Part shown: positions 205 to 57,084 of the stretch, piece after piece
How positions within the stretch are numbered: the first letter of the stretch is position 1
How the letters are laid out: each line of letters opens with the position of its first letter
Notes under the pieces: model-generated
What the model was told of the DNA's origin: nothing
What the model saw: the letters and a program-made list of their open reading frames with translations, nothing else
Databases searched by the model: none
Virus record (IMG/VR): IMGVR_UViG_3300045015_000053
DNA length: 64,000 nucleotides
DNA from: a virus
Taxonomy: Duplodnaviria; Caudoviricetes
Strand: one strand, 5' to 3'
Made by a program: the position numbers and the translations under genes

Positions 205-332
205 GCCGGGTTAGCTCAGTGGCAGAGCGCGTAAAAGTTGACTCACCACATTTTGCCCGCAAGGGATGACTCGATGGGTTTACATTCCATTCCCAGGACG
301 AGGTCGCGAAGTTCGATTCTTCGCTCCCGGCT
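205..332 (+). ncRNA. Y RNA-like (YrlA-type), circularly permuted: tRNA acceptor, D and T arms with a Ro-type stem in place of the anticodon arm
   Basis: Acceptor GCCGGG/CCCGGC, D arm TAGCTCAGTGGCAGAGC, T loop GTTCGATTC; middle TTTTG-CCC-GCAA-GGG-ATGAC...GGGTTTACATTCC matches the five sister elements. Confidence 0.7.
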
Positions 333-338
333 TTATCT

Positions 339-8221: not shown

Positions 8222-8572
8222 GTGTGAACGATTCACGCCGAGCTAAGGAGGCTCATGAGCGAAAAGGACTTCAAAAACAAGCGTGCGCGTAAGGCACTGC
8301 GGGATTTGTGAGAGGTACAGTGAGCGGCTGTCGTTGTTCGAGGCCGAGTTGATGGTGTTGGCGATCAGGGCGGGCAGCATGGTGGCGGCTCTGAAAGAAA
8401 TTGGGATTGCAAAAAGCAGGATAAAGGGCATACTGAGAGCGGCCAGGGAACTGGACGAAAAACTCAGAGACATGTGAACCTTCGGATGGACGGCAGCGTC
8501 CATCCAGTACAGAGATCCGGCGAGAAGCAACAGGATGAAGGGCGTGACGCTCGCTTGTGATTATGAGTTAAC

Positions 8573-9500: not shown

Positions 9501-9690
9501 CGCCTCCTTTCCCGAATTTCATCGCCGTGGTGCTTGGTCTGTCGATGGCGTCCTGTTTTTTCTTGGGTGGCAACATCCGAAAGTGGATGTTGGGGCATAA
9601 ATTGGATGTGTGGGAAAAGGCCGGGATGCTGTTGCACCCGGTGGTGATTGTGGCGGGTGTCGTGAACGTGTTCTTGGCACTTGGGAATAA

Positions 9691-9758
9691 GGGGTCACTA
9701 GCGGACTAGCTCTGTCGTTCGCAACGACGGATTCGGGGTTCGACTCCCCGTGGCTCCA
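9691..9758 (+). tRNA. tRNA-Ala(CGC), reduced D arm
   Basis: Acceptor GGGGTCA/TGGCTCC with G3-U70, arm TGTCG-TTCGCAA-CGACG. Confidence 0.75.
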
Positions 9759-9814
9759 CTGCACGCTTCTTGCTGAAATGCGGATAAATCGACGTGCGTT
9801 AAAAATATCGGCCT

Positions 9815-9885
9815 GGGGTGTTGGTATAGTGGTATTACGTCTGCTTTGCAAGCAGAAGACCGGGGTCCGATTCCCCGACGCTCCA
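9815..9885 (+). tRNA. tRNA-Ala(TGC)
   Basis: G3-U70, arm TCTGC-TTTGCAA-GCAGA. Confidence 0.85.
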
Positions 9886-9887
9886 CT

Positions 9888-9947
9888 GCGAAGATGACAG
9901 TTGGGATTACATCGCCAATGTGAAATCTCAGCGACTTTTTGCTTCGC
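9888..9947 (+). ncRNA. Minimal Y RNA-like hairpin 1
   Basis: GCGAAG-ATGAC-AGTTGGGATTACAT...ATGTGAAATCTCAGCGACT-TTTTG-CTTCGC. Confidence 0.7.
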
Positions 9948-9951
9948 GATT

Positions 9952-10022
9952 GCCTTCATAGTTTAGTGGCAGAACACGATCTTGGTAAGATTGAAACCTG
10001 AGTTCGATTCTCAGTGAAGGCT
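9952..10022 (+). tRNA. tRNA-Thr(GGT)
   Basis: Acceptor GCCTTCA/TGAAGGC, arm CGATC-TTGGTAA-GATTG. Confidence 0.9.
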
Positions 10023-10360
10023 CTTGGAGACACCGATGTCATCCGAAGAAGATGAGGTTGAAGGTGGTCCGTGTCACACGGTGACGGCGGAAGACATGAT
10101 CGAGATACGCCGGCGCATGTGCGGCGGTGATGTCCTCAAGCTAGTCAACCACTACTTGATTTCATACGGCACGCCGTACTCGGCAGAATTGGTTGTGAAC
10201 GACACCAGTCTCGTCTGCGTGACGAAGGACGTGTCGGAAGGCCAAAGCACCGAGTGCTACAACGCCGAAGAGTTGTTGAAGTCACTGGAACGCTGTTCTT
10301 CGACGGAAGACGTGCGAGTGGTTTTGGAAGAAAGCGGTCTGGCTCTGTGAATGGGGGAAC

Positions 10361-10717
10361 TTGAGGACGTTTAACGAGTGGGTTCTGCTGCAAGAAGATA
10401 CGATCTGGGAGAAGCACGGTCGCGATCTCCCGTCCATCTTTAAGTCAACCCATTATGCTCTGCCGACCTATCAACAACTGGAAGAGTTCAGCGACTATCC
10501 CGAACTGACGGCAGAAGAGATCGTTCAAGGTTTCGGGTATACGATTGTGGGTCGTGGCGTGAGCAGTCCCGACAACTGCAAGAAGATCGTTGAGTCGATT
10601 CGGTTGTTGGTGGAGCGATACCCCGACCGGCTGGAATACAAAGAGGCGTTGACTAAGGCCGAAGAAGAGGCCAAGATCAAACTCGAAAAGTGGCGCAGGG
10701 GGGTACGTTTCCCGTAA
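10361..10717 (+). CDS. Hypothetical protein with CTS-like N-terminus (MRTFNEWVLLQE)
   Basis: TTG start after GGGGAA; shared N-terminal motif. Confidence 0.6.
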   Translation: MRTFNEWVLLQEDTIWEKHGRDLPSIFKSTHYALPTYQQLEEFSDYPELTAEEIVQGFGYTIVGRGVSSPDNCKKIVESIRLLVERYPDRLEYKEALTKAEEEAKIKLEKWRRGVRFP

Positions 10718-10730
10718 TGGAGGGATTGTC

Positions 10731-11162
10731 ATGACGCTTCCGACCGGCAAGAACAAGACGAAGCTCGTCCGCGAGGGTGAGGAAAAACGGCTCGCACAAG
10801 AAAGTGAGCAGAAGCGGCAAGAGACGGAAAAGGCTGCGGCCGAGCAGCGAAAGAAGGATGACGAGTTCTCCAAGCTCGTCACGAGCTTGAAGGAACGGAT
10901 CGAAGCAACCGTTTACCGCGCGATCAACGCCGGTCATCGGGAAACCGAGATCATCATCCCGAAGGACTACGCCGAGCCTCGATACCTCGAAGCGTGGACG
11001 AAGGCGGTGGTCGGGCTGCGGCGCAGTTACGGCAAAGAATACAAGTTCGATTTGCACGAACACCGCCTATACTGTGACAACAGGTTCGAGGCCGCGAACG
11101 TGGACGGCGTCAGCTACCAAGAGTGGACCGAAGACGCTCACAGGTTGAAGGTCACTTGGTGA
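10731..11162 (+). CDS. Hypothetical protein
   Basis: SD GGAGG, coiled-coil N-terminus. Confidence 0.65.
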   Translation: MTLPTGKNKTKLVREGEEKRLAQESEQKRQETEKAAAEQRKKDDEFSKLVTSLKERIEATVYRAINAGHRETEIIIPKDYAEPRYLEAWTKAVVGLRRSYGKEYKFDLHEHRLYCDNRFEAANVDGVSYQEWTEDAHRLKVTW

Positions 11163-11204
11163 TTTTGCGGTGAAGTTTGAAAACGGGTCTATAATGACCT
11201 TGAT

Positions 11205-11278
11205 GGTGTGCGTGGTGTAGTGGCTTTGCACGTTTCCCTGTGAAGGAAAAGGTGGCGGATCGTAACCGCTCGCACACC
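11205..11278 (+). tRNA. tRNA-His(GTG) with encoded G-1
   Basis: 8-bp acceptor GGTGTGCG/CGCACACC, arm TTTCC-CTGTGAA-GGAAA. Confidence 0.85.
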
Positions 11279-11345
11279 CTAGTCGAGATGACAGACAGGA
11301 GTACATTCACTACTCGTTCTCTTGTCAACTTATTGCTCGGCTTAT

Positions 11346-11413
11346 GCCCCGCCCTGCGGTCAGGTTCGGAGTCTACGAAACTCTGAAGTTCCGTTCGACT
11401 CGGAAGCGGGGTA
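11346..11413 (+). tRNA. tRNA-Arg(ACG), reduced D arm
   Basis: Acceptor GCCCCGC/GCGGGGT, arm GGAGT-CTACGAA-ACTCT. Confidence 0.7.
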
Positions 11414-11416
11414 CTT

Positions 11417-11487
11417 GCCCGGTCCAGCGGTTTACCGGCACTGAGCTTGCGAAGCTCGGTTGCGTGGTTCGACTCCACGACAGGGTA
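11417..11487 (+). tRNA. tRNA-Arg(GCG)
   Basis: Arm TGAGC-TTGCGAA-GCTCG, T loop TTCGACT, one acceptor mismatch. Confidence 0.7.
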
Positions 11488-11490
11488 CTC

Positions 11491-11551
11491 GGTGAGATGA
11501 ACGTAGGGATTACATTGGTTATGTGAAATCTCTACAACCTTTTTGCTCATC
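11491..11551 (+). ncRNA. Minimal Y RNA-like hairpin 2
   Basis: GGTGAG-ATGA-ACGTAGGGATTACAT...ATGTGAAATCTCTAC...TTTTG-CTCATC. Confidence 0.7.
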
Positions 11552-11574
11552 ACATTTTCTTCCGAAAGGCGCGA

Positions 11575-11853
11575 ATGGCGACGAGTGGCGACCCTGAGAT
11601 CTGGTTGTTGCAACGCATTGATGAGTTGCAGGACAAACCTAATTGGCCCGCGACCCACAAGAACATCTGGCAGGGCAGTTATGATGTGTGGTTCTCGGAA
11701 CAAGATCGGATCGACGCCTACGAGATTCCAAAAAGACGGATGGCGAGCGCTGTCAAGCAGGATCTCATTCAGAGTAGCATCAAGGAAGTCGGGAAGTACA
11801 AGTTCGAGGTCTGGAGTTTGACCGAGAAGGGCAAGCAGTTGATTGGCAAGTGA
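11575..11853 (+). CDS. Hypothetical protein
   Basis: ORF with AAGG upstream. Confidence 0.55.
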   Translation: MATSGDPEIWLLQRIDELQDKPNWPATHKNIWQGSYDVWFSEQDRIDAYEIPKRRMASAVKQDLIQSSIKEVGKYKFEVWSLTEKGKQLIGK

Positions 11854-12058
11854 TGTGGGCAATAACATGAGCAAGACGATTTTGCCGTGGCCGATGATTT
11901 TGGGGCTAACCGCCGGAATCATGGTCGGAAATTGTTGCTTGAAATTGCTTGAAGACTGGCCTCGCGACAAAGGGTTGTTGTTCGGTTTGGTTTGCGGCCT
12001 CGTGAACGTTGTTTTGTGCGGTTCGTTCCGTGTAATTGAATGGATGGTTCGGCGTTAA

Positions 12059-12132
12059 CGGCCCATAGTGTAGTGGTTTCTGCACGAGAGTCTGATAAAC
12101 TCTAAGTCGAAGTTCGATTCTTCGTGGGCCGA
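12059..12132 (+). tRNA. tRNA-Ile(GAT)
   Basis: Acceptor CGGCCCA/TGGGCCG, loop CTGATAA. Confidence 0.85.
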
Positions 12133-12141
12133 CTGATTGAT

Positions 12142-12211
12142 GGTGTACGACTCCGGTGAGTAGTTGTGGTTGTGAACTATGACAAGGTGGGTTCGACCCC
12201 CATCGTACACC
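12142..12211 (+). tRNA. tRNA-His(GTG), degenerate
   Basis: 8-bp acceptor GGTGTACG/CGTACACC, loop TTGTGAA; weak D and anticodon stems. Confidence 0.6.
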
Positions 12212-12214
12212 CTT

Positions 12215-12292
12215 GCGAGATGACCTTGTTGGGGATTACATTCCTTTTCAGAATGTGCCGAAAGGCACAATCTCCGACGTTCTTTTGCTCGC
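12215..12292 (+). ncRNA. Minimal Y RNA-like hairpin 3 (with extra GAAA hairpin)
   Basis: GCGAG-ATGACC-TTGTTGGGGATTACATTC...AATCTCCGAC...TTTTG-CTCGC. Confidence 0.7.
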
Positions 12293-12298
12293 TTTATT

Positions 12299-12370
12299 CG
12301 GCCTGTCGTTCAATGGTTAGGACAGTGGTCTGATAAACCGCAAACGGTGGTTCGACTCCACCCAGGCCGA
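12299..12370 (+). tRNA. tRNA-Ile(GAT)
   Basis: Acceptor CGGCCTG/CAGGCCG, arm GTGGT-CTGATAA-ACCGC. Confidence 0.9.
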
Positions 12371-12374
12371 CTTC

Positions 12375-12404
12375 TGTCTGATAATTTTTCCAATTTATCA
12401 GACA
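12375..12404. repeat. Inverted repeat copying the Ile anticodon loop, upstream of HNH
   Basis: TGTCTGATAA-N10-TTATCAGACA; GTCTGATAA is shared with the tRNA. Confidence 0.8.
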
Positions 12405-12422
12405 ACATGGCTATAATACGTC

Positions 12423-12890
12423 ATGGAGAAATACTGCTCGACATGCAAGCAGACCAAGCTTTGCTCTGCATTCAACAAGAACCGCTATCGCAAAGACGGC
12501 CTGCAAGTCAGGTGCAGAGATTGCGACAAAGCCAGATCAAAACAGAGGTATCAGGGCGAGTACAAAGACTACTACATCGCCAAGAGCCAAGAGACGCTGG
12601 CTGCACGACGCCAGTGGTTCGAGGATTACAAGAAAGACAAATGCTGTTCACGGTGTGGCGACCTTCGCTGGTATGTGTTGGAGTTTCACCACCGTGACGG
12701 CGTTGACAAGGAAGACGAAATCTCTCGAATGGTCTTCAACAAGAGATCGGTCGATAAGATCATGCTGGAGATAGCCAAGTGCGATCTGGTGTGCGCCAAC
12801 TGCCACCGTGAATTGCACCACATGCAAAAACAGACGGGCGGTTCGACCCCGCCCTTCCGTACTGACGGGTTTCCACCCAGTAAAAACTAG
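12423..12890 (+). CDS. HNH endonuclease with N-terminal Zn finger
   Basis: CSTC...CRDC, LEFHHRDG, KCDLVCANCHR; TATAAT upstream; 3' end contains a tRNA T-arm remnant. Confidence 0.85.
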   Translation: MEKYCSTCKQTKLCSAFNKNRYRKDGLQVRCRDCDKARSKQRYQGEYKDYYIAKSQETLAARRQWFEDYKKDKCCSRCGDLRWYVLEFHHRDGVDKEDEISRMVFNKRSVDKIMLEIAKCDLVCANCHRELHHMQKQTGGSTPPFRTDGFPPSKN

Positions 12891-44237: not shown

Positions 44238-45125
44238 ATGGAAGAAGTTGAAATCCGTGGCGAATACTGGGTCCAGAACGGTCAGGTCGATTTCGCGGAC
44301 GGCGACATCGGCGATCAGAACCACGAAGGCATTGCCATTGACCACGTCGTCAGCAAATACGCTGATGAAGTTTCTAGTTTGGCAGACGAGTTGAATCTCG
44401 GTCACGAAGCACTCGATTCAGGCTACAACGGCTATGATTCCGAGGCCGTGTCGAAGCTTTTGTGGCGCGTTTACGAAACCTTGACTGTCGGTCGAGATCC
44501 CGACGACGAAGACGAACAGGGCGAAGAACGCGACCCCATTAGTGACGAAGAAGCCGACAGTTACATCATGAAAGAATTACGGTGTAACGCGGACGCCTAC
44601 CAGATTTTGCTCGGTCGTGGTGACGCAAGGCTTTACGTCATGAAGTACGAGGGGTGGATGGCGATCCGTTCGCACTCAATTGAGGTTTACGGGTATTCAG
44701 ATGCGATGCGTCCGCAAGTGGCGAGTGCCATCCAAGATGTGATTTACGAAGAACATAATTTGACCGACGACGAGTACGACCCAGAGACGGTTGAAATTGA
44801 TCTCCACGATCTCAAAAACAACAAATACTACAGTGTGACTTTGGCAGAGCTTTTGGCCCCACCAGCGATGCCGACGACTCAGACGCGGAACATTGACGAC
44901 GGCAAGAACGCTTACACTGGGAAGTTGAAAGACACCTCCACGGCAAGTTCACGCCCGGATCGCGCCGAGAGTGATCCGCAGTGGAACAAGAACAAGAGCG
45001 TGATGGGCAAATGGAACAGAGCCGTTAAGGACGTGACGGGTCAAGACCTGTGGCGTGGCACGTCGGAATGGCGTGTTACCTTCGGGGAATGGCTTGCGGA
45101 AAAGCATCCAGATCTACTAGAATAA
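44238..45125 (+). CDS. Acidic hypothetical protein
   Basis: Leaderless ATG after TAAATA; ends TFGEWLAEKHPDLLE. Confidence 0.7.
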   Translation: MEEVEIRGEYWVQNGQVDFADGDIGDQNHEGIAIDHVVSKYADEVSSLADELNLGHEALDSGYNGYDSEAVSKLLWRVYETLTVGRDPDDEDEQGEERDPISDEEADSYIMKELRCNADAYQILLGRGDARLYVMKYEGWMAIRSHSIEVYGYSDAMRPQVASAIQDVIYEEHNLTDDEYDPETVEIDLHDLKNNKYYSVTLAELLAPPAMPTTQTRNIDDGKNAYTGKLKDTSTASSRPDRAESDPQWNKNKSVMGKWNRAVKDVTGQDLWRGTSEWRVTFGEWLAEKHPDLLE

Positions 45126-45171
45126 AATTCGACGCGGGATTGGTATATCGGCTGTGCCGAAGATTTCCGAC

Positions 45172-45292: not shown

Positions 45293-45691
45293 ATGGTTAA
45301 AAAGTGCTGTATGTGTAAGCTGGATAAACTGCTCGATGCTTTCAAAAGCAATCCGCGACGACATGACGGATTGCAATCTCAATGTGCTGAATGCCACGCC
45401 GAGTATCGTCGTAAACATTACCTCGCTAACCGCGAGAAGTACATCAAGAAAGCAGCAAGCTGGAAGAAGAATTTCCAGGCTTGGTGGAAAGAGTACAAGA
45501 AGCAGTTCAAGTGTTCACGCTGCCCAGAACAACACCCTGCGTGCATCCAATTTCATCATCCCAATGACGACAAAGAGTTAGGTGTGTCGCAATGGGTTGG
45601 CAGAGGTGATAAAGAACGGGTTTTGGAAGAGATTGCCAAGTGCATCCCTCTTTGTGGCAACTGTCACGCTAAAGAGCATTGGAAAGACTAA
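45293..45691 (+). CDS. HNH endonuclease with N-terminal Zn finger
   Basis: CCMC...CAEC, IQFHH, KCIPLCGNCHAKEH; TAAATA 45283-45288. Confidence 0.85.
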   Translation: MVKKCCMCKLDKLLDAFKSNPRRHDGLQSQCAECHAEYRRKHYLANREKYIKKAASWKKNFQAWWKEYKKQFKCSRCPEQHPACIQFHHPNDDKELGVSQWVGRGDKERVLEEIAKCIPLCGNCHAKEHWKD

Positions 45692-49346: not shown

Positions 49347-49378
49347 GTCCCGAATTCATAAGGTTCGGGGATACATAG

Positions 49379-49502
49379 GCTGGAGTGGCGCAGTGGCAGC
49401 GCGCGTAAAGTATCTCGACAACTATTGCCCTCACGGGATGCGGTTGGGATTACATTCCATAATCAGGACGAGGTCGCGAGGTTCGATTCCTCGCCTCCAG
49501 CA
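49379..49502 (+). ncRNA. Y RNA-like, circularly permuted (copy 3)
   Basis: Acceptor GCTGGAG/CTCCAGC; ATCTCGAC..TATTG-CCC-TCAC-GGG-ATGC-GGTTGGGATTACATTCC; T loop TTCGATT. Confidence 0.75.
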
Positions 49503-55610: not shown

Positions 55611-56264
55611 ATGAAATTCAAGATCAAGAAGTCCAATCCGGTTCCGGGTGTGATTCACCTGCTGTTCAAGAACCAGTATGAGACGTGTTCCACGTTCATG
55701 CGGCTCCAAGAGTTCTATGAGTCGCCGTTCAAGCAGATTCGCGGCAAGCTGTTCTCGCTCGAACAGTTGATGGACCTGTACGCCAAGCAGCAGGGCAACT
55801 TCACTTACACCTGCGACTGGGGCGGCTTCAACGTGCCGGGCCACGTCGTTGACGAGTTCTTCCGTCTTTACGACGGGCAGTTGCTCGAAAAAGAGAAGGA
55901 CTTGAGGGAACTGGTTAAGGACAAGGCCGGCAAGATTGCGGTCGGCTCTAAGTATTACGTCATCGGGATGTACGGCGAAGAATGTCTGGATCACGAACTG
56001 GCCCATGCGTTATACTACCTCAATGACGACTACCGCCGTCAAGTTAACGGCCTAGTCAAAGCGTTGCCGGAATCGGTAAAGTCTGCCATCGCGAAGTGGC
56101 TCTTGGACAAAGGGTACTCGAAGCCGCTGATCGTGGACGAAACCAACGCCTACTTGACGACCGACGATCAGGAAGAGTTGACGAAGCGTTTCGGCAAAGC
56201 GGTCGGCAAGCGGTACGCGAAGTACGAGCCTTTCAGGAGAGCGTTCGATGACGCAAAGTTCTGA
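55611..56264 (+). CDS. Hypothetical protein with HExxH motif
   Basis: YVIG...LDHELAHALYY. Confidence 0.65.
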   Translation: MKFKIKKSNPVPGVIHLLFKNQYETCSTFMRLQEFYESPFKQIRGKLFSLEQLMDLYAKQQGNFTYTCDWGGFNVPGHVVDEFFRLYDGQLLEKEKDLRELVKDKAGKIAVGSKYYVIGMYGEECLDHELAHALYYLNDDYRRQVNGLVKALPESVKSAIAKWLLDKGYSKPLIVDETNAYLTTDDQEELTKRFGKAVGKRYAKYEPFRRAFDDAKF

Positions 56265-57084
56265 GCCGTGGCGTGACGCAGTCACCTGTTTTGAGGACGG
56301 GGTGATTACCCAACACGAGTTCGTCAACACCATGTTCGATCTGTTGACGGTCGAGAACGTTTGGGAGATCGGCAAGCAGATCGACAAGAAGTATTTCGAC
56401 ATGCTCGCGGCGCGGCTCTCCGAACTGCCCGACGACGACGAGGGCTGGTCGAAGATGCGACGTTCCCACATGGGGAGCTTCACCGGCCCGGTCACCCAGA
56501 ACGAAGACTTCTCTGCAATGCGGCGTGGTGTCGAAGCTTTCCGCCGTTACTGTCTGATCCCGACAAAAGCACAAAAGAACTGGAAGTGCCTGTGCTATCT
56601 CTGCTTCCCCGAAGCGGTGGAGTACGGCGAACTTATCCCAGACATGTTTCTGTTCAAGGACGGCGACACCTACGGGTTGATGATGCAGTCCGGGCATCGC
56701 GGGGACTACATACTCTTGTTCCCAGAAAAGCCGACGCCGGACCCCGATCCTGAGTGTGTCCACGAATACGACGAGATCGCCACATCCGAGCGTTGGGTGG
56801 ATGTGGTGGCCGACTGGCAGGAGAAGTTGAAGCTGTTTCCGTCCGAGGGGCATCATCTGGTAGAGTCCTGCAAAGAGGCCGGGTGGAGCTACAAGCACGG
56901 CCACATGCTGTTCTGGCTGTTCGACCGCGCCGGGAAGATGCTGGAGGGTCAGGATGTTTCCGGTCAAACCGCAGGATCTGGATCTGCTTCCGAACCGGAG
57001 TGCAGAGTTGAGGGAGAAGATTCTGATCGGGCATGTGGTTCGCCCGATCAAGGTGGAGTGGTTGGACCTGAAGGAGCCGACTAA
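56248..57084 (+). CDS. Hypothetical protein
   Basis: Long ORF; its 3' end overlaps the next ORF. Confidence 0.55.
   Translation: MTQSSEPWRDAVTCFEDGVITQHEFVNTMFDLLTVENVWEIGKQIDKKYFDMLAARLSELPDDDEGWSKMRRSHMGSFTGPVTQNEDFSAMRRGVEAFRRYCLIPTKAQKNWKCLCYLCFPEAVEYGELIPDMFLFKDGDTYGLMMQSGHRGDYILLFPEKPTPDPDPECVHEYDEIATSERWVDVVADWQEKLKLFPSEGHHLVESCKEAGWSYKHGHMLFWLFDRAGKMLEGQDVSGQTAGSGSASEPECRVEGEDSDRACGSPDQGGVVGPEGAD

What the first reader, a model, noticed from the sequence alone, without database searches (positions are those of the whole stretch)
9888..12292. Minimal Y-RNA-like hairpins embedded directly behind tRNAs
Each of the three short elements starts 2-3 nt after a tRNA 3' end (Ala-TGC, Arg-GCG, His), so tRNA 3' processing would release it. 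They are only 60-78 nt and conserve the asymmetric ATGA/TTTTG loop while the closing stems covary (GCGAAG/CTTCGC, GGTGAG/CTCATC, GCGAG/CTCGC). This suggests a minimal Ro60 ligand with no effector domain.
Basis: partly seen in the sequence, partly recalled or inferred. Interest (0 to 1): 0.65.

Follow-up and report, generated by a model that had tools for sequence, protein, structure and literature searches.

The report
Phage minimal Y RNAs behind tRNAs
A huge lake-water phage that encodes its own Ro60/Rsr protein carries at least five 60-78-nt hairpin genes, each 2-3 nt behind a tRNA, that have the same docking "handle" as the small Y RNAs found next to rsr in bacteria, so they are most likely minimal Ro60 partner RNAs cut out of the tRNA transcript.

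Summary
There are four such hairpins in the window, not three: E1 9888-9947, E4 11282-11341, E2 11491-11551 and E3 12215-12292. A fifth lies upstream in the same phage. All start 2-3 nt after a tRNA. Two of those "tRNAs", Arg-GCG and a second His, are degenerate and are called only at relaxed thresholds.

Each hairpin has the layout stem1, AUGA loop, stem2, UACAU, cap, stem2', U-rich UUG loop, stem1'. A pattern for this layout hits 181 times on the rsr strand and once on the other strand in 80 bacterial rsr loci. A covariance model built only from bacterial rsr-linked minimal elements recovers all five phage elements. In 101 planctomycete genomes that model hits 9 of 10 rsr-positive and 1 of 91 rsr-negative genomes. 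The phage encodes an intact Rsr at 59603-61396. Myxococcus phage Mx1 places YrlA-type RNAs flush behind tRNAs in the same way.

So these are YrlB-class minimal Y RNA-like genes. Release by RNase P and RNase Z, and binding to Rsr, are inferred; no RNA data exist. Phage Y RNAs and minimal Y RNAs are already known. The flush position behind tRNAs, the copy number and the distance from rsr are the new points. This scan has noted Y-like RNAs in phage tRNA operons on other DNA.

The parts
9815..9886 (+). tRNA-Ala(UGC). No CCA is encoded. The discriminator A is at 9885, followed by the spacer CU.
   Evidence: ARAGORN; Rfam tRNA model 63.4 bits
9888..9947 (+). E1, a minimal Y RNA-like hairpin: GCGAAG-AUGACA-GUUGGGAU-U-ACAU(CGCCA)AUGU-GAA-AUCUCAGC-GACUUUUUG-CUUCGC
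   Evidence: Sequence; fold; YrlB model 18.5 bits with the same architecture; model R2 21.6 bits; model R1
9952..10023 (+). tRNA-Thr(GGU), 4 nt after E1. RNase P cleavage at its 5' end would set the 3' end of E1.
11206..11279 (+). tRNA-His(GUG), canonical
   Evidence: Rfam tRNA model 50.4 bits
11282..11341 (+). Its stem 2 has a different sequence but still pairs: GACAGGAG/CUCUUGUC.
   Evidence: model R2 25.9 bits
11344..11414 (+). tRNA-Arg(ACG), directly after E4
   Evidence: ARAGORN
11417..11488 (+). Degenerate tRNA-Arg(GCG)-like gene. It has a good T arm, one acceptor-stem mismatch and a poor D arm.
   Evidence: Found by ARAGORN only with -ps90. Not called by default ARAGORN or by Rfam.
11491..11551 (+). 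E2, a minimal Y RNA-like hairpin. It is followed by an ORF that starts at 11576.
   Evidence: model R1 53.9 bits; model R2 29.0 bits, E 7e-6
12134..12212 (+). Degenerate tRNA-His(GUG)-like gene
   Evidence: ARAGORN with -ps90; tRNA-Sec model 28 bits
12215..12292 (+). E3, a minimal Y RNA-like hairpin with a two-hairpin cap that includes GCC-GAAA-GGC. A bacterial rsr-linked counterpart with the same kind of cap is L165:6599-6674.
   Evidence: model R2 16.6 bits; bacterial counterpart
12299..12371 (+). tRNA-Ile(GAU), 6 nt after E3
59603..61396 (+). rsr, the phage Ro60 orthologue (597 aa; TROVE domain plus Ro60 vWA domain). It is the presumed protein partner.
   Evidence: Pfam PF25045 at 6.5e-14 and PF05731 at 1.3e-7. 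Full-length homologues are named 60 kDa SS-A/Ro ribonucleoprotein. It is 41% identical to the Mx1 TROVE protein.
49378..49501 (+). Context: a 'tRNA-shelled', circularly permuted copy of the same handle. The handle sits where the anticodon arm should be, and stem 1 is capped by a tetraloop. Sister copies lie at 207-334 and about 871-996 of the window, and at genome 68826-68953.

Best explanation
E1 to E5 are genes for YrlB-class minimal Y RNA-like RNAs. Each consists only of the Rsr/Ro60-binding handle, closed by a short cap where YrlA carries its tRNA-like domain. The handle is a terminal stem, an asymmetric internal loop (AUGA on the 5' side, U-rich UUG on the 3' side), a second stem, and then UACAU.

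The elements are transcribed as part of the phage's polycistronic tRNA array. They are probably cut out by the tRNA-maturation enzymes. An RNase Z-type cut, or trimming behind the discriminator of the upstream tRNA, would make the 5' end 2-3 nt before the stem. RNase P cleavage at the next tRNA would make the 3' end 2-6 nt after it.

The released hairpins of about 65-85 nt would then bind the phage-encoded Rsr ring. By analogy with Rsr-Y RNA-PNPase complexes, they would gate or retarget it during infection.

Shown here: the elements, their covarying fold, their flush position behind tRNAs, homology of the handle to rsr-linked bacterial RNAs, and the presence of rsr.
Inferred: transcription, processing, accumulation as discrete RNAs, Rsr binding, and the downstream function.
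For: 1. The phage encodes a full-length Ro60/Rsr.
2. The Rfam YrlB and YrlA consensus sequences show the same layout: stem, AUGC, stem, (C)UA(CAU), then ...UUG and stem. YrlB even contains GGGAUUACAU.
3. A descriptor taken from the phage elements hits 80 bacterial rsr loci 181 times on the rsr strand and once on the other strand, in 71 of 80 loci. The median distance is about 300 nt from rsr. Shuffles give 0-4 hits, and 1.0 Mb of unrelated phage DNA gives 12. Thirty-eight of the hits are minimal forms of 90 nt or less, in 31 loci.
4. Model R2, built from 35 bacterial minimal elements only, scores E5 29.3, E2 29.0, E4 25.9, E1 21.6 and E3 16.6 bits. These were the five best hits in the 188-kb record.
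5. R2 is specific for rsr. All 246 hits lie on the rsr strand in 888 kb. All 10 hits in five genomes of 5-8 Mb fall inside the rsr locus. In 101 planctomycete genomes it hits 9 of 10 rsr-positive and 1 of 91 rsr-negative genomes, Fisher p 5e-11.
6. Covariation is strong: 12 of 14 pairs show compensatory changes.
7. Five of five elements start 2-3 nt after a tRNA or tRNA-like gene, and three are followed by a tRNA within 2-6 nt.
8. Myxococcus phage Mx1 (Rsr 41% identical) has two YrlA-type RNAs, at R2 37.8 and 35.5 bits and Rfam YrlA 32 bits. Each sits 2 nt behind a tRNA, and the first is followed by a tRNA after 5 nt.
9. A phage Ro60 binding phage-encoded Y-like RNAs and host PNPase has been shown for Thermus phage phiLo (PMC12135203). 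Hairpin-type Y RNAs bound by Rsr are known (PMC4201824).
Against: - No RNA data exist. No RNA run holds this DNA, so expression, processing and accumulation are untested.
- The elements lie 47-50 kb from rsr, and E5 about 76 kb from it. Published YrlA genes are nearly all within 4 kb (PMC4201824).
- Scores are modest: 16.6-29.3 bits on R2, and 18.5 bits on Rfam YrlB against a gathering score of 97.
- The published GNCGAAN0-1G motif is matched only loosely. E1 has GCGAAG, while the others have CGAG, UGAG or CAGG. The pair that closes the loop is G-C in the phage but A-U in bacteria and Mx1.
- The R2 seeds were picked with a descriptor derived from the phage elements, so ATG, TAC and TTG are shared by construction.
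- R2 found nothing near rsr in three actinophages, so this handle is not universal to Rsr systems.
- The tRNA-like genes in front of E2 and E3 are degenerate, so those two units may not be processed like true tRNAs.
Confidence: 0.72

Rival explanations
1. The handle acts in cis and is not released. Sitting directly on the 3' trailer of a pre-tRNA, it would recruit Rsr, and through it a 3'-to-5' exoribonuclease such as PNPase, to the precursor. That would trim the structured trailer or subject the tRNA to quality control.
For: - All five elements are flush with a tRNA 3' end, and the two Mx1 elements are placed the same way.
- None of these tRNAs encodes CCA, so their 3' ends must be processed.
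- From established knowledge: Rsr assists exonucleolytic maturation and decay of structured RNA in Deinococcus.
Against: - Bacterial homologues of the handle are free-standing genes in arrays beside rsr, spaced 15-80 nt apart and not attached to tRNAs.
- The same phage also puts the handle inside tRNA-shaped RNAs, where it cannot be a trailer.
- YrlB-type RNAs accumulate as stable Rsr-bound species in Salmonella and M. smegmatis (PMC4201824).
Confidence: 0.12
2. For E2 and E3 the functional unit is the unprocessed tandem of a degenerate tRNA-like domain plus the handle. This would be a YrlA-like two-module Y RNA with the modules side by side instead of nested. Only E1, E4 and E5 would be released as minimal RNAs.
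For: - The tRNA-like genes in front of E2 and E3 fall below default detection thresholds and have poor D arms.
- They duplicate the identities of nearby canonical tRNAs, Arg and His.
- YrlA combines a tRNA-like effector module with the same handle (10.1101/312249).
Against: - Their acceptor stems and T arms, which are the determinants for RNase P and RNase Z, are largely intact.
- The spacing of 2-3 nt is the same as behind the canonical tRNAs.
Confidence: 0.1
3. The hairpins are something other than Y RNA handles. Candidates are leaky intrinsic terminators, RNase processing signals between tRNA genes, or self-cleaving ribozymes of the kind found behind phage tRNAs.
For: - Each element is a hairpin followed by a U run inside a tRNA array.
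- From memory, not checked here: HDV-like 'theta' ribozymes sit directly 3' of phage tRNAs.
Against: - The terminator scan flags none of the elements. The U run is 3-4 nt away from stem 2 and is enclosed by the covarying stem 1.
- No ribozyme family matched even at E up to 10.
- The strict association of the same handle with rsr in bacteria has no explanation under this reading.
Confidence: 0.04

Closest known systems
YrlB of Salmonella Typhimurium (Rfam RF02565) and M. smegmatis, and Yrn2 of Deinococcus radiodurans: hairpin-type Y RNAs bound by Rsr (Chen et al. 2013/2014, PMC4201824)
   Same: - A short hairpin RNA consisting of the Rsr handle without a tRNA-like domain.
- The same order of stem, AUG-loop, stem, UACAU..., UUG and stem. 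GGGAUUACAU is identical to the YrlB consensus.
- Encoded in a genome that carries rsr, on the same strand.
   Different: - Only 18.5 bits on the Rfam model, whose gathering score is 97.
- Located 47-76 kb from rsr instead of beside it.
- Attached 2-3 nt behind tRNA genes.
- A G-C pair rather than an A-U pair closes the loop, and the 5' loop reads AUGA rather than AUGC.
- At least five copies, plus at least four permuted ones, in one phage.
YrlA (Rfam RF02553), the tRNA-mimicking Y RNA of bacteria and mycobacteriophages (PMC4201824; 10.1101/312249)
   Same: The basal Rsr-binding handle is the same. The Mx1 relatives of the window's elements are of this type and are likewise placed flush behind tRNAs.
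   Different: E1-E5 have no nested D, T or acceptor mimic. Their cap is 13-31 nt long.
Thermus phage phiLo Ro60 with phage-encoded Yrl1 and Yrl2 (PMC12135203)
   Same: A phage-encoded Ro60 together with phage-encoded Y-like RNAs of stem-bulge-stem form carrying a CGAA-type motif. Binding, and a ternary complex with host PNPase, were shown experimentally.
   Different: The phiLo RNAs lie just upstream of the Ro60 gene and are not described as attached to tRNAs. Sequence relatedness to E1-E5 was not tested here.
tRNA-linked small RNAs released by tRNA-processing enzymes: MHV68 tRNA-miRNA (TMER) units, mascRNA/MALAT1, plant tRNA-snoRNA dicistrons, and mitochondrial tRNA punctuation (from memory, not checked here)
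   Same: This concerns how the elements would work, not membership of a family. In each case a hairpin RNA placed directly next to a tRNA or tRNA-like structure gets its ends from RNase Z and RNase P.
   Different: The cargo and the organisms are different. Processing has not been shown for this phage.

Membership tests
YrlB-class / rsr-linked minimal Y RNA-like RNAs | The genome encodes a Ro60/Rsr orthologue | tested here: met
   Window 59603-61396 encodes a protein with TROVE and Ro60 vWA domains. Full-length homologues are 48-77% identical.
YrlB-class / rsr-linked minimal Y RNA-like RNAs | Basal handle: terminal stem, asymmetric loop (5' AUG-M, 3' ...UUG), second stem, then UAC(AU) | tested here: met
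   - All five elements have it.
- It matches the YrlB and YrlA consensus.
- Model R2, built from bacterial rsr-linked minimal elements, scores them 16.6-29.3 bits.
- 12 of 14 pairs covary.
YrlB-class / rsr-linked minimal Y RNA-like RNAs | A hairpin with no tRNA-like (D/T/acceptor) domain | tested here: met
   The caps are 13-31 nt long and contain no T-loop motif.
YrlB-class / rsr-linked minimal Y RNA-like RNAs | GNCGAAN0-1G motif near the 5' end (Chen et al. 2014) | tested here: inconclusive
   - E1 reads uGCGAAG, matching 6 of 7 positions.
- E4 reads GUCGAG, E3 GCGAG, E2 GGUGAG and E5 GGCAGG. All deviate.
- Mx1 element 1 reads GCCGAAUG, an exact match.
YrlB-class / rsr-linked minimal Y RNA-like RNAs | Encoded within about 4 kb of rsr on the same strand (the search criterion of Chen et al. 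2014) | tested here: not met
   The strand is the same, but the elements lie 47-50 kb upstream of rsr, and E5 about 76 kb upstream. This is a criterion of genomic context, not a property of the RNA.
YrlB-class / rsr-linked minimal Y RNA-like RNAs | Reaches the Rfam RF02565 gathering score | tested here: not met
   E1 scores 18.5 bits against a threshold of 97. E2-E4 were not reported. The search that defined YrlB found orthologues only in Salmonella enterica serovars (PMC4201824).
YrlB-class / rsr-linked minimal Y RNA-like RNAs | Accumulates as a discrete RNA and is bound by Rsr | not testable with these tools
   No RNA run holds this DNA. The complex predictor does not take RNA.
YrlA (RF02553) | A tRNA-like effector domain nested in the handle | tested here: not met
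   E1-E5 lack it. The weak YrlA hits in the genome fall on tRNAs.
Self-cleaving ribozymes placed next to phage tRNAs (HDV-like, hatchet, hammerhead and others) | A match to a ribozyme covariance model | tested here: not met
   No ribozyme family matched at E up to 10 over 9600-12500.
Intrinsic terminator | A G+C-rich hairpin immediately followed by a U run | tested here: not met
   The scan flagged none of the elements. The U run is separated from stem 2 and is enclosed by stem 1.

The most novel reading that the evidence does not exclude
The flush tRNA-handle fusions are not only a way to make Y RNAs. They would physically couple the phage's Ro60 ring to its own tRNA supply. While the precursor is intact, or permanently in the degenerate tRNA-like units and the tRNA-shelled copies, a real or near-real tRNA would serve as the 'effector module' of a Y RNA. 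Rsr and its exonuclease partner would then act as a built-in maturation and quality-control station for phage tRNAs, or as a shield against host tRNA-cleaving defences.
Probability: 0.15. Interest if true: 0.75.

Novelty: new variant of a known kind. Interest (0 to 1): 0.5.

Why it matters
Ro60-Y RNA particles are conserved from bacteria to humans, where Ro60 is a major autoantigen. How Y RNAs are made in bacteria, and what they do, is still poorly understood.

This phage gives a compact natural set for dissecting what Rsr recognises and what the tRNA module adds. It holds one Rsr gene, at least five bare handles, and at least four handles embedded in tRNA-shaped shells.

The flush position behind tRNAs, shared with Myxococcus phage Mx1, suggests a simple and testable route of biogenesis: tRNA punctuation by RNase P and RNase Z. 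It also ties phage Ro60 systems to phage tRNA arrays.

As a by-product, the analysis shows that YrlB-like minimal Y RNAs are common next to rsr in Acidobacteriota, Planctomycetota, Verrucomicrobiota and Myxococcota. Earlier BLAST searches found them only in Salmonella. The analysis also yields a specific model for annotating them.

Tried and rejected
- Exact-pattern scans of IMG/VR found no true relatives. The patterns were GATGA..GGGATTACAT, the same with ..AATCTC added, and the permuted TTTTGCCCGCAAGGGATG. They returned only coding-sequence chance matches or nothing.
- The search for related loci with the single Rsr protein found nothing in viral contigs.
- The closest Rsr relatives (76-77% identical) lie on contigs of 0.54-0.59 Mb in one NCBI assembly. 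Those contigs cannot be searched whole. The fetched 20-kb stretches (L146, L147) contain no handle by the descriptor. A homologue of the neighbouring ORF 10731-11162 is not syntenic with a tRNA array there.
- No RNA holder was listed for window 9700-12400. All thirteen holders are DNA runs, twelve from lake or fresh water and one from drinking water.
It missed E3 and the Mx1 elements.
- Model R2 found no hit within 12 kb of rsr in the actinophages Myrna, Limpid and Sixama.
- RtcB and a CCA-adding enzyme were not found in the 188-kb fragment. The record is estimated at 37% complete, so this says nothing about the whole phage.
- I considered and rejected a C/D-box (k-turn) reading of GAUGA, because there is no CUGA D box.
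- I also rejected the terminator and ribozyme readings (see the rival explanations).
Full report
**What is there.** The window is part of a 188-kb IMG/VR record, G000:C1:73123-137122. The DNA occurs in lake-water metagenomes. A protein 100% identical to the window's Rsr lies on a contig of 476 kb. ARAGORN finds 30 tRNAs in the window and 50 in the record.

Corrected coordinates are E1 9888-9947, E2 11491-11551 and E3 12215-12292. They share this order of parts: stem 1 of 5-6 bp; a 5' loop AUGA(M); stem 2 of 8-11 bp ending GGGAU; UACAU; a short cap; the return strand AUCUC...; a U-rich 3' loop ending UUUUG; and stem 1'.

I found a fourth copy, E4 (11282-11341). Its stem 2 has a different sequence but still pairs fully. 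I also found a fifth, E5, upstream of the window at genome 56356-56421.

**Position relative to tRNAs.**

| Element | Upstream gene | Spacer |
|---|---|---|
| E1 | tRNA-Ala(UGC) | CU |
| E4 | tRNA-His(GUG) | CUA |
| E5 | tRNA-Ser(GGA) | CUC |
| E2 | Arg(GCG)-like gene | CUC |
| E3 | second His(GUG)-like gene | UU |

The genes in front of E2 and E3 are degenerate. Only ARAGORN at 90% thresholds calls them. None of these tRNAs encodes CCA. E1, E4 and E3 are followed by another tRNA after 4, 2-4 and 6 nt. E2 is followed by an ORF. By a rough count, the chance of five of five starts landing in the 3-nt slot behind a tRNA is about 5e-16.

**Is the fold real?** A descriptor of the layout gives exactly E1-E4 in the 188-kb record, against 0.25 hits per shuffled genome. 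I aligned the five phage elements and two from phage Mx1 to a covariance model. Twelve of 14 pairs show changes on both sides. 94.6% of cells pair, against 36-55% when the partners are slid by 1-3 columns, and 0 of 500 shuffles reach the observed covariation. That alignment was fitted to the model, which favours pairing, but the stems listed above can also be read directly from the sequences.

**What it is.** The window encodes a 597-aa Ro60/Rsr orthologue at 59603-61396, with TROVE and Ro60 vWA domains. Full-length relatives are annotated as 60 kDa SS-A/Ro ribonucleoprotein.

Rfam gives no match above its gathering scores. E1 aligns end to end with YrlB at 18.5 bits. The printed YrlB and YrlA consensus sequences show the same basal layout: stem, AUGC, stem, (C)UA(CAU)..., UUG, stem. 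YrlB contains GGGAUUACAU.

To test whether this handle really travels with rsr, I fetched 80 bacterial rsr loci with 5-kb flanks. The descriptor hits them 181 times on the rsr strand and once on the opposite strand, in 71 of 80 loci and mostly within 2 kb of rsr. Shuffles give 0-4 hits, and 1.0 Mb of unrelated phage contigs gives 12. Hit lengths are bimodal. Thirty-eight hits, in 31 loci, are minimal hairpins of 60-90 nt. The rest mostly carry a T-loop and are therefore YrlA-type. Some minimal bacterial copies even share GGGAUUACAU...AUCUC with the phage, for example L155:4994-5049. One, L165:6599-6674, has the same two-hairpin cap with a GAAA loop as E3.

**An independent model.** I built model R2 from 35 of these bacterial minimal elements, with no phage sequence included.
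- In the phage record its five hits are E5 (29.3 bits), E2 (29.0), E4 (25.9), E1 (21.6) and E3 (16.6).
- All 246 hits at E 0.01 or better in 888 kb lie on the rsr strand.
- In five bacterial genomes of 5-8 Mb, all ten hits fall inside the rsr locus.
- In a sample of 101 genomes from the phylum of G001 (Planctomycetota), R2 hits 9 of 10 genomes with a strong Ro60 match, always just downstream on the same strand. It hits 1 of 91 without one, Fisher p 5e-11.

One caveat applies. The seeds were chosen with a descriptor derived from the phage, so ATG, TAC and TTG are shared by construction. The Rfam consensus and the rsr specificity do not depend on that choice.

**A cultured relative.** The best GenBank phage match to the Rsr is Myxococcus phage Mx1, at 41% identity. 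Its tRNA array has the same style and contains two YrlA-type RNAs with this handle:
- L130:8257-8378 scores 37.8 bits on R2 and 32 bits on Rfam YrlA. It begins 2 nt after an unannotated tRNA-Pro(UGG) and ends 5 nt before tRNA-Pro(GGG).
- L130:8607-8710 scores 35.5 bits on R2 and begins 2 nt after tRNA-Ile.

The flush position behind tRNAs is thus shared by two distantly related Rsr-encoding phages. In bacterial arrays the elements are spaced 15-80 nt apart and are not attached to tRNAs.

**Differences from the bacterial consensus.** In bacteria and Mx1 the loop is closed by CGA|AUGC ... UUG|UCG, an A-U pair. This fits the published GNCGAAN0-1G motif. In this phage all minimal and permuted copies have a G-C pair at that position, AUGA, AUGC or AUGU in the loop, and a longer U run. 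The strict motif is met nearly by E1 only. Because the deviation is the same in all copies, co-evolution with the phage's own Rsr is plausible, but that is inference.

**Mechanism.** The most likely reading is that the array is transcribed as long precursors. RNase P cuts at each tRNA 5' end. An RNase Z-type cut, or trimming behind the discriminator, frees the 3' side. The hairpins fall out as RNAs of about 65-85 nt that bind Rsr.

Rsr-bound hairpin Y RNAs (YrlB, Yrn2) and their processing from a common precursor are documented in PMC4201824. A phage Ro60 that binds phage Y-like RNAs and host PNPase is documented in PMC12135203. What the particle does in this infection is unknown. Retargeting a host exoribonuclease is the best-supported analogy.

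The rivals are a cis-acting handle on the pre-tRNA trailer, unprocessed tRNA-like-plus-handle tandems for E2 and E3, and terminators or ribozymes. They are weighed in their own sections. The terminator scan and the Rfam scans give no support to the last of these.

**Novelty.** Phage Y RNAs were reported in 2014 (22 phages) and 2025 (phiLo), and minimal Y RNAs are known. I found none of the following in the papers I could search:
- the flush, tRNA-punctuated placement;
- at least five bare handles plus at least four tRNA-shelled, permuted handles in one phage;
- their distance of 47-76 kb from rsr.

This scan has already reported Y-like RNAs in the tRNA operons of other phages on other DNA. It has also reported one tRNA-shaped Y RNA of this same genome.

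Noticed in passing
genome G000:C1:56356-56421 (L229:557-622), about 16.7 kb upstream of the window start: A fifth minimal Y RNA-like hairpin, E5, sits 2-3 nt behind tRNA-Ser(GGA) at 56258-56353. Its stem 2 has a single bulged C, and it carries GGACUACAU as in the bacterial consensus. Model R2 scores it 29.3 bits.
   Followed up: yes
window 207-334, about 871-996 and 49378-49501; genome 68826-68953 (L230): There are four 'tRNA-shelled' RNAs. Each has normal acceptor, D and T arms, but the anticodon arm is replaced by a circularly permuted copy of the same handle: stem 2', ..UUG, CCC-tetraloop-GGG, AUG., stem 2, UACAU. A permuted descriptor found no true counterpart in 80 bacterial rsr loci or in the Mx1 stretch. 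The few hits there were junctions between tandem elements.
   Followed up: partly
L149-L228 (80 bacterial rsr loci): rsr in Acidobacteriota, Planctomycetota, Verrucomicrobiota, Myxococcota and other phyla is followed by arrays of about three Y-like RNAs on average, and up to six. These include 60-70-nt minimal YrlB-like hairpins in 31 of 80 loci. Rfam's YrlB model does not reach them. Chen et al. 2014 found YrlB orthologues only in Salmonella.
   Followed up: partly
L130:8180-8255 and 8384-8460 (Myxococcus phage Mx1, OR576727.2 about 45094-45169 and 45298-45374): ARAGORN finds two tRNA-Pro genes (UGG and GGG) that are not annotated in the GenBank record. They flank a YrlA-type RNA. The annotated CDS at L130:8610-8732 overlaps the second YrlA-type RNA and is probably not a gene.
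   Followed up: partly
L146, L147 (NCBI assembly GCA_040384205.1, contigs of 586 and 543 kb): The closest Rsr (76% identical) and a 54%-identical homologue of ORF 10731-11162 lie on two very large contigs. These are rich in small same-strand ORFs and also carry RF-1, SIR2, RNase T-like and NAMPT genes. They probably belong to related huge phages binned into one assembly.
   Followed up: no
window 11206-11279 compared with 12134-12212, and 11344-11414 compared with 11417-11488: Canonical tRNA-His and tRNA-Arg genes each have a degenerate same-identity copy nearby, and that copy carries a Y-like hairpin. This suggests that tRNA-plus-hairpin units were duplicated and the tRNA part then decayed.
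   Followed up: no
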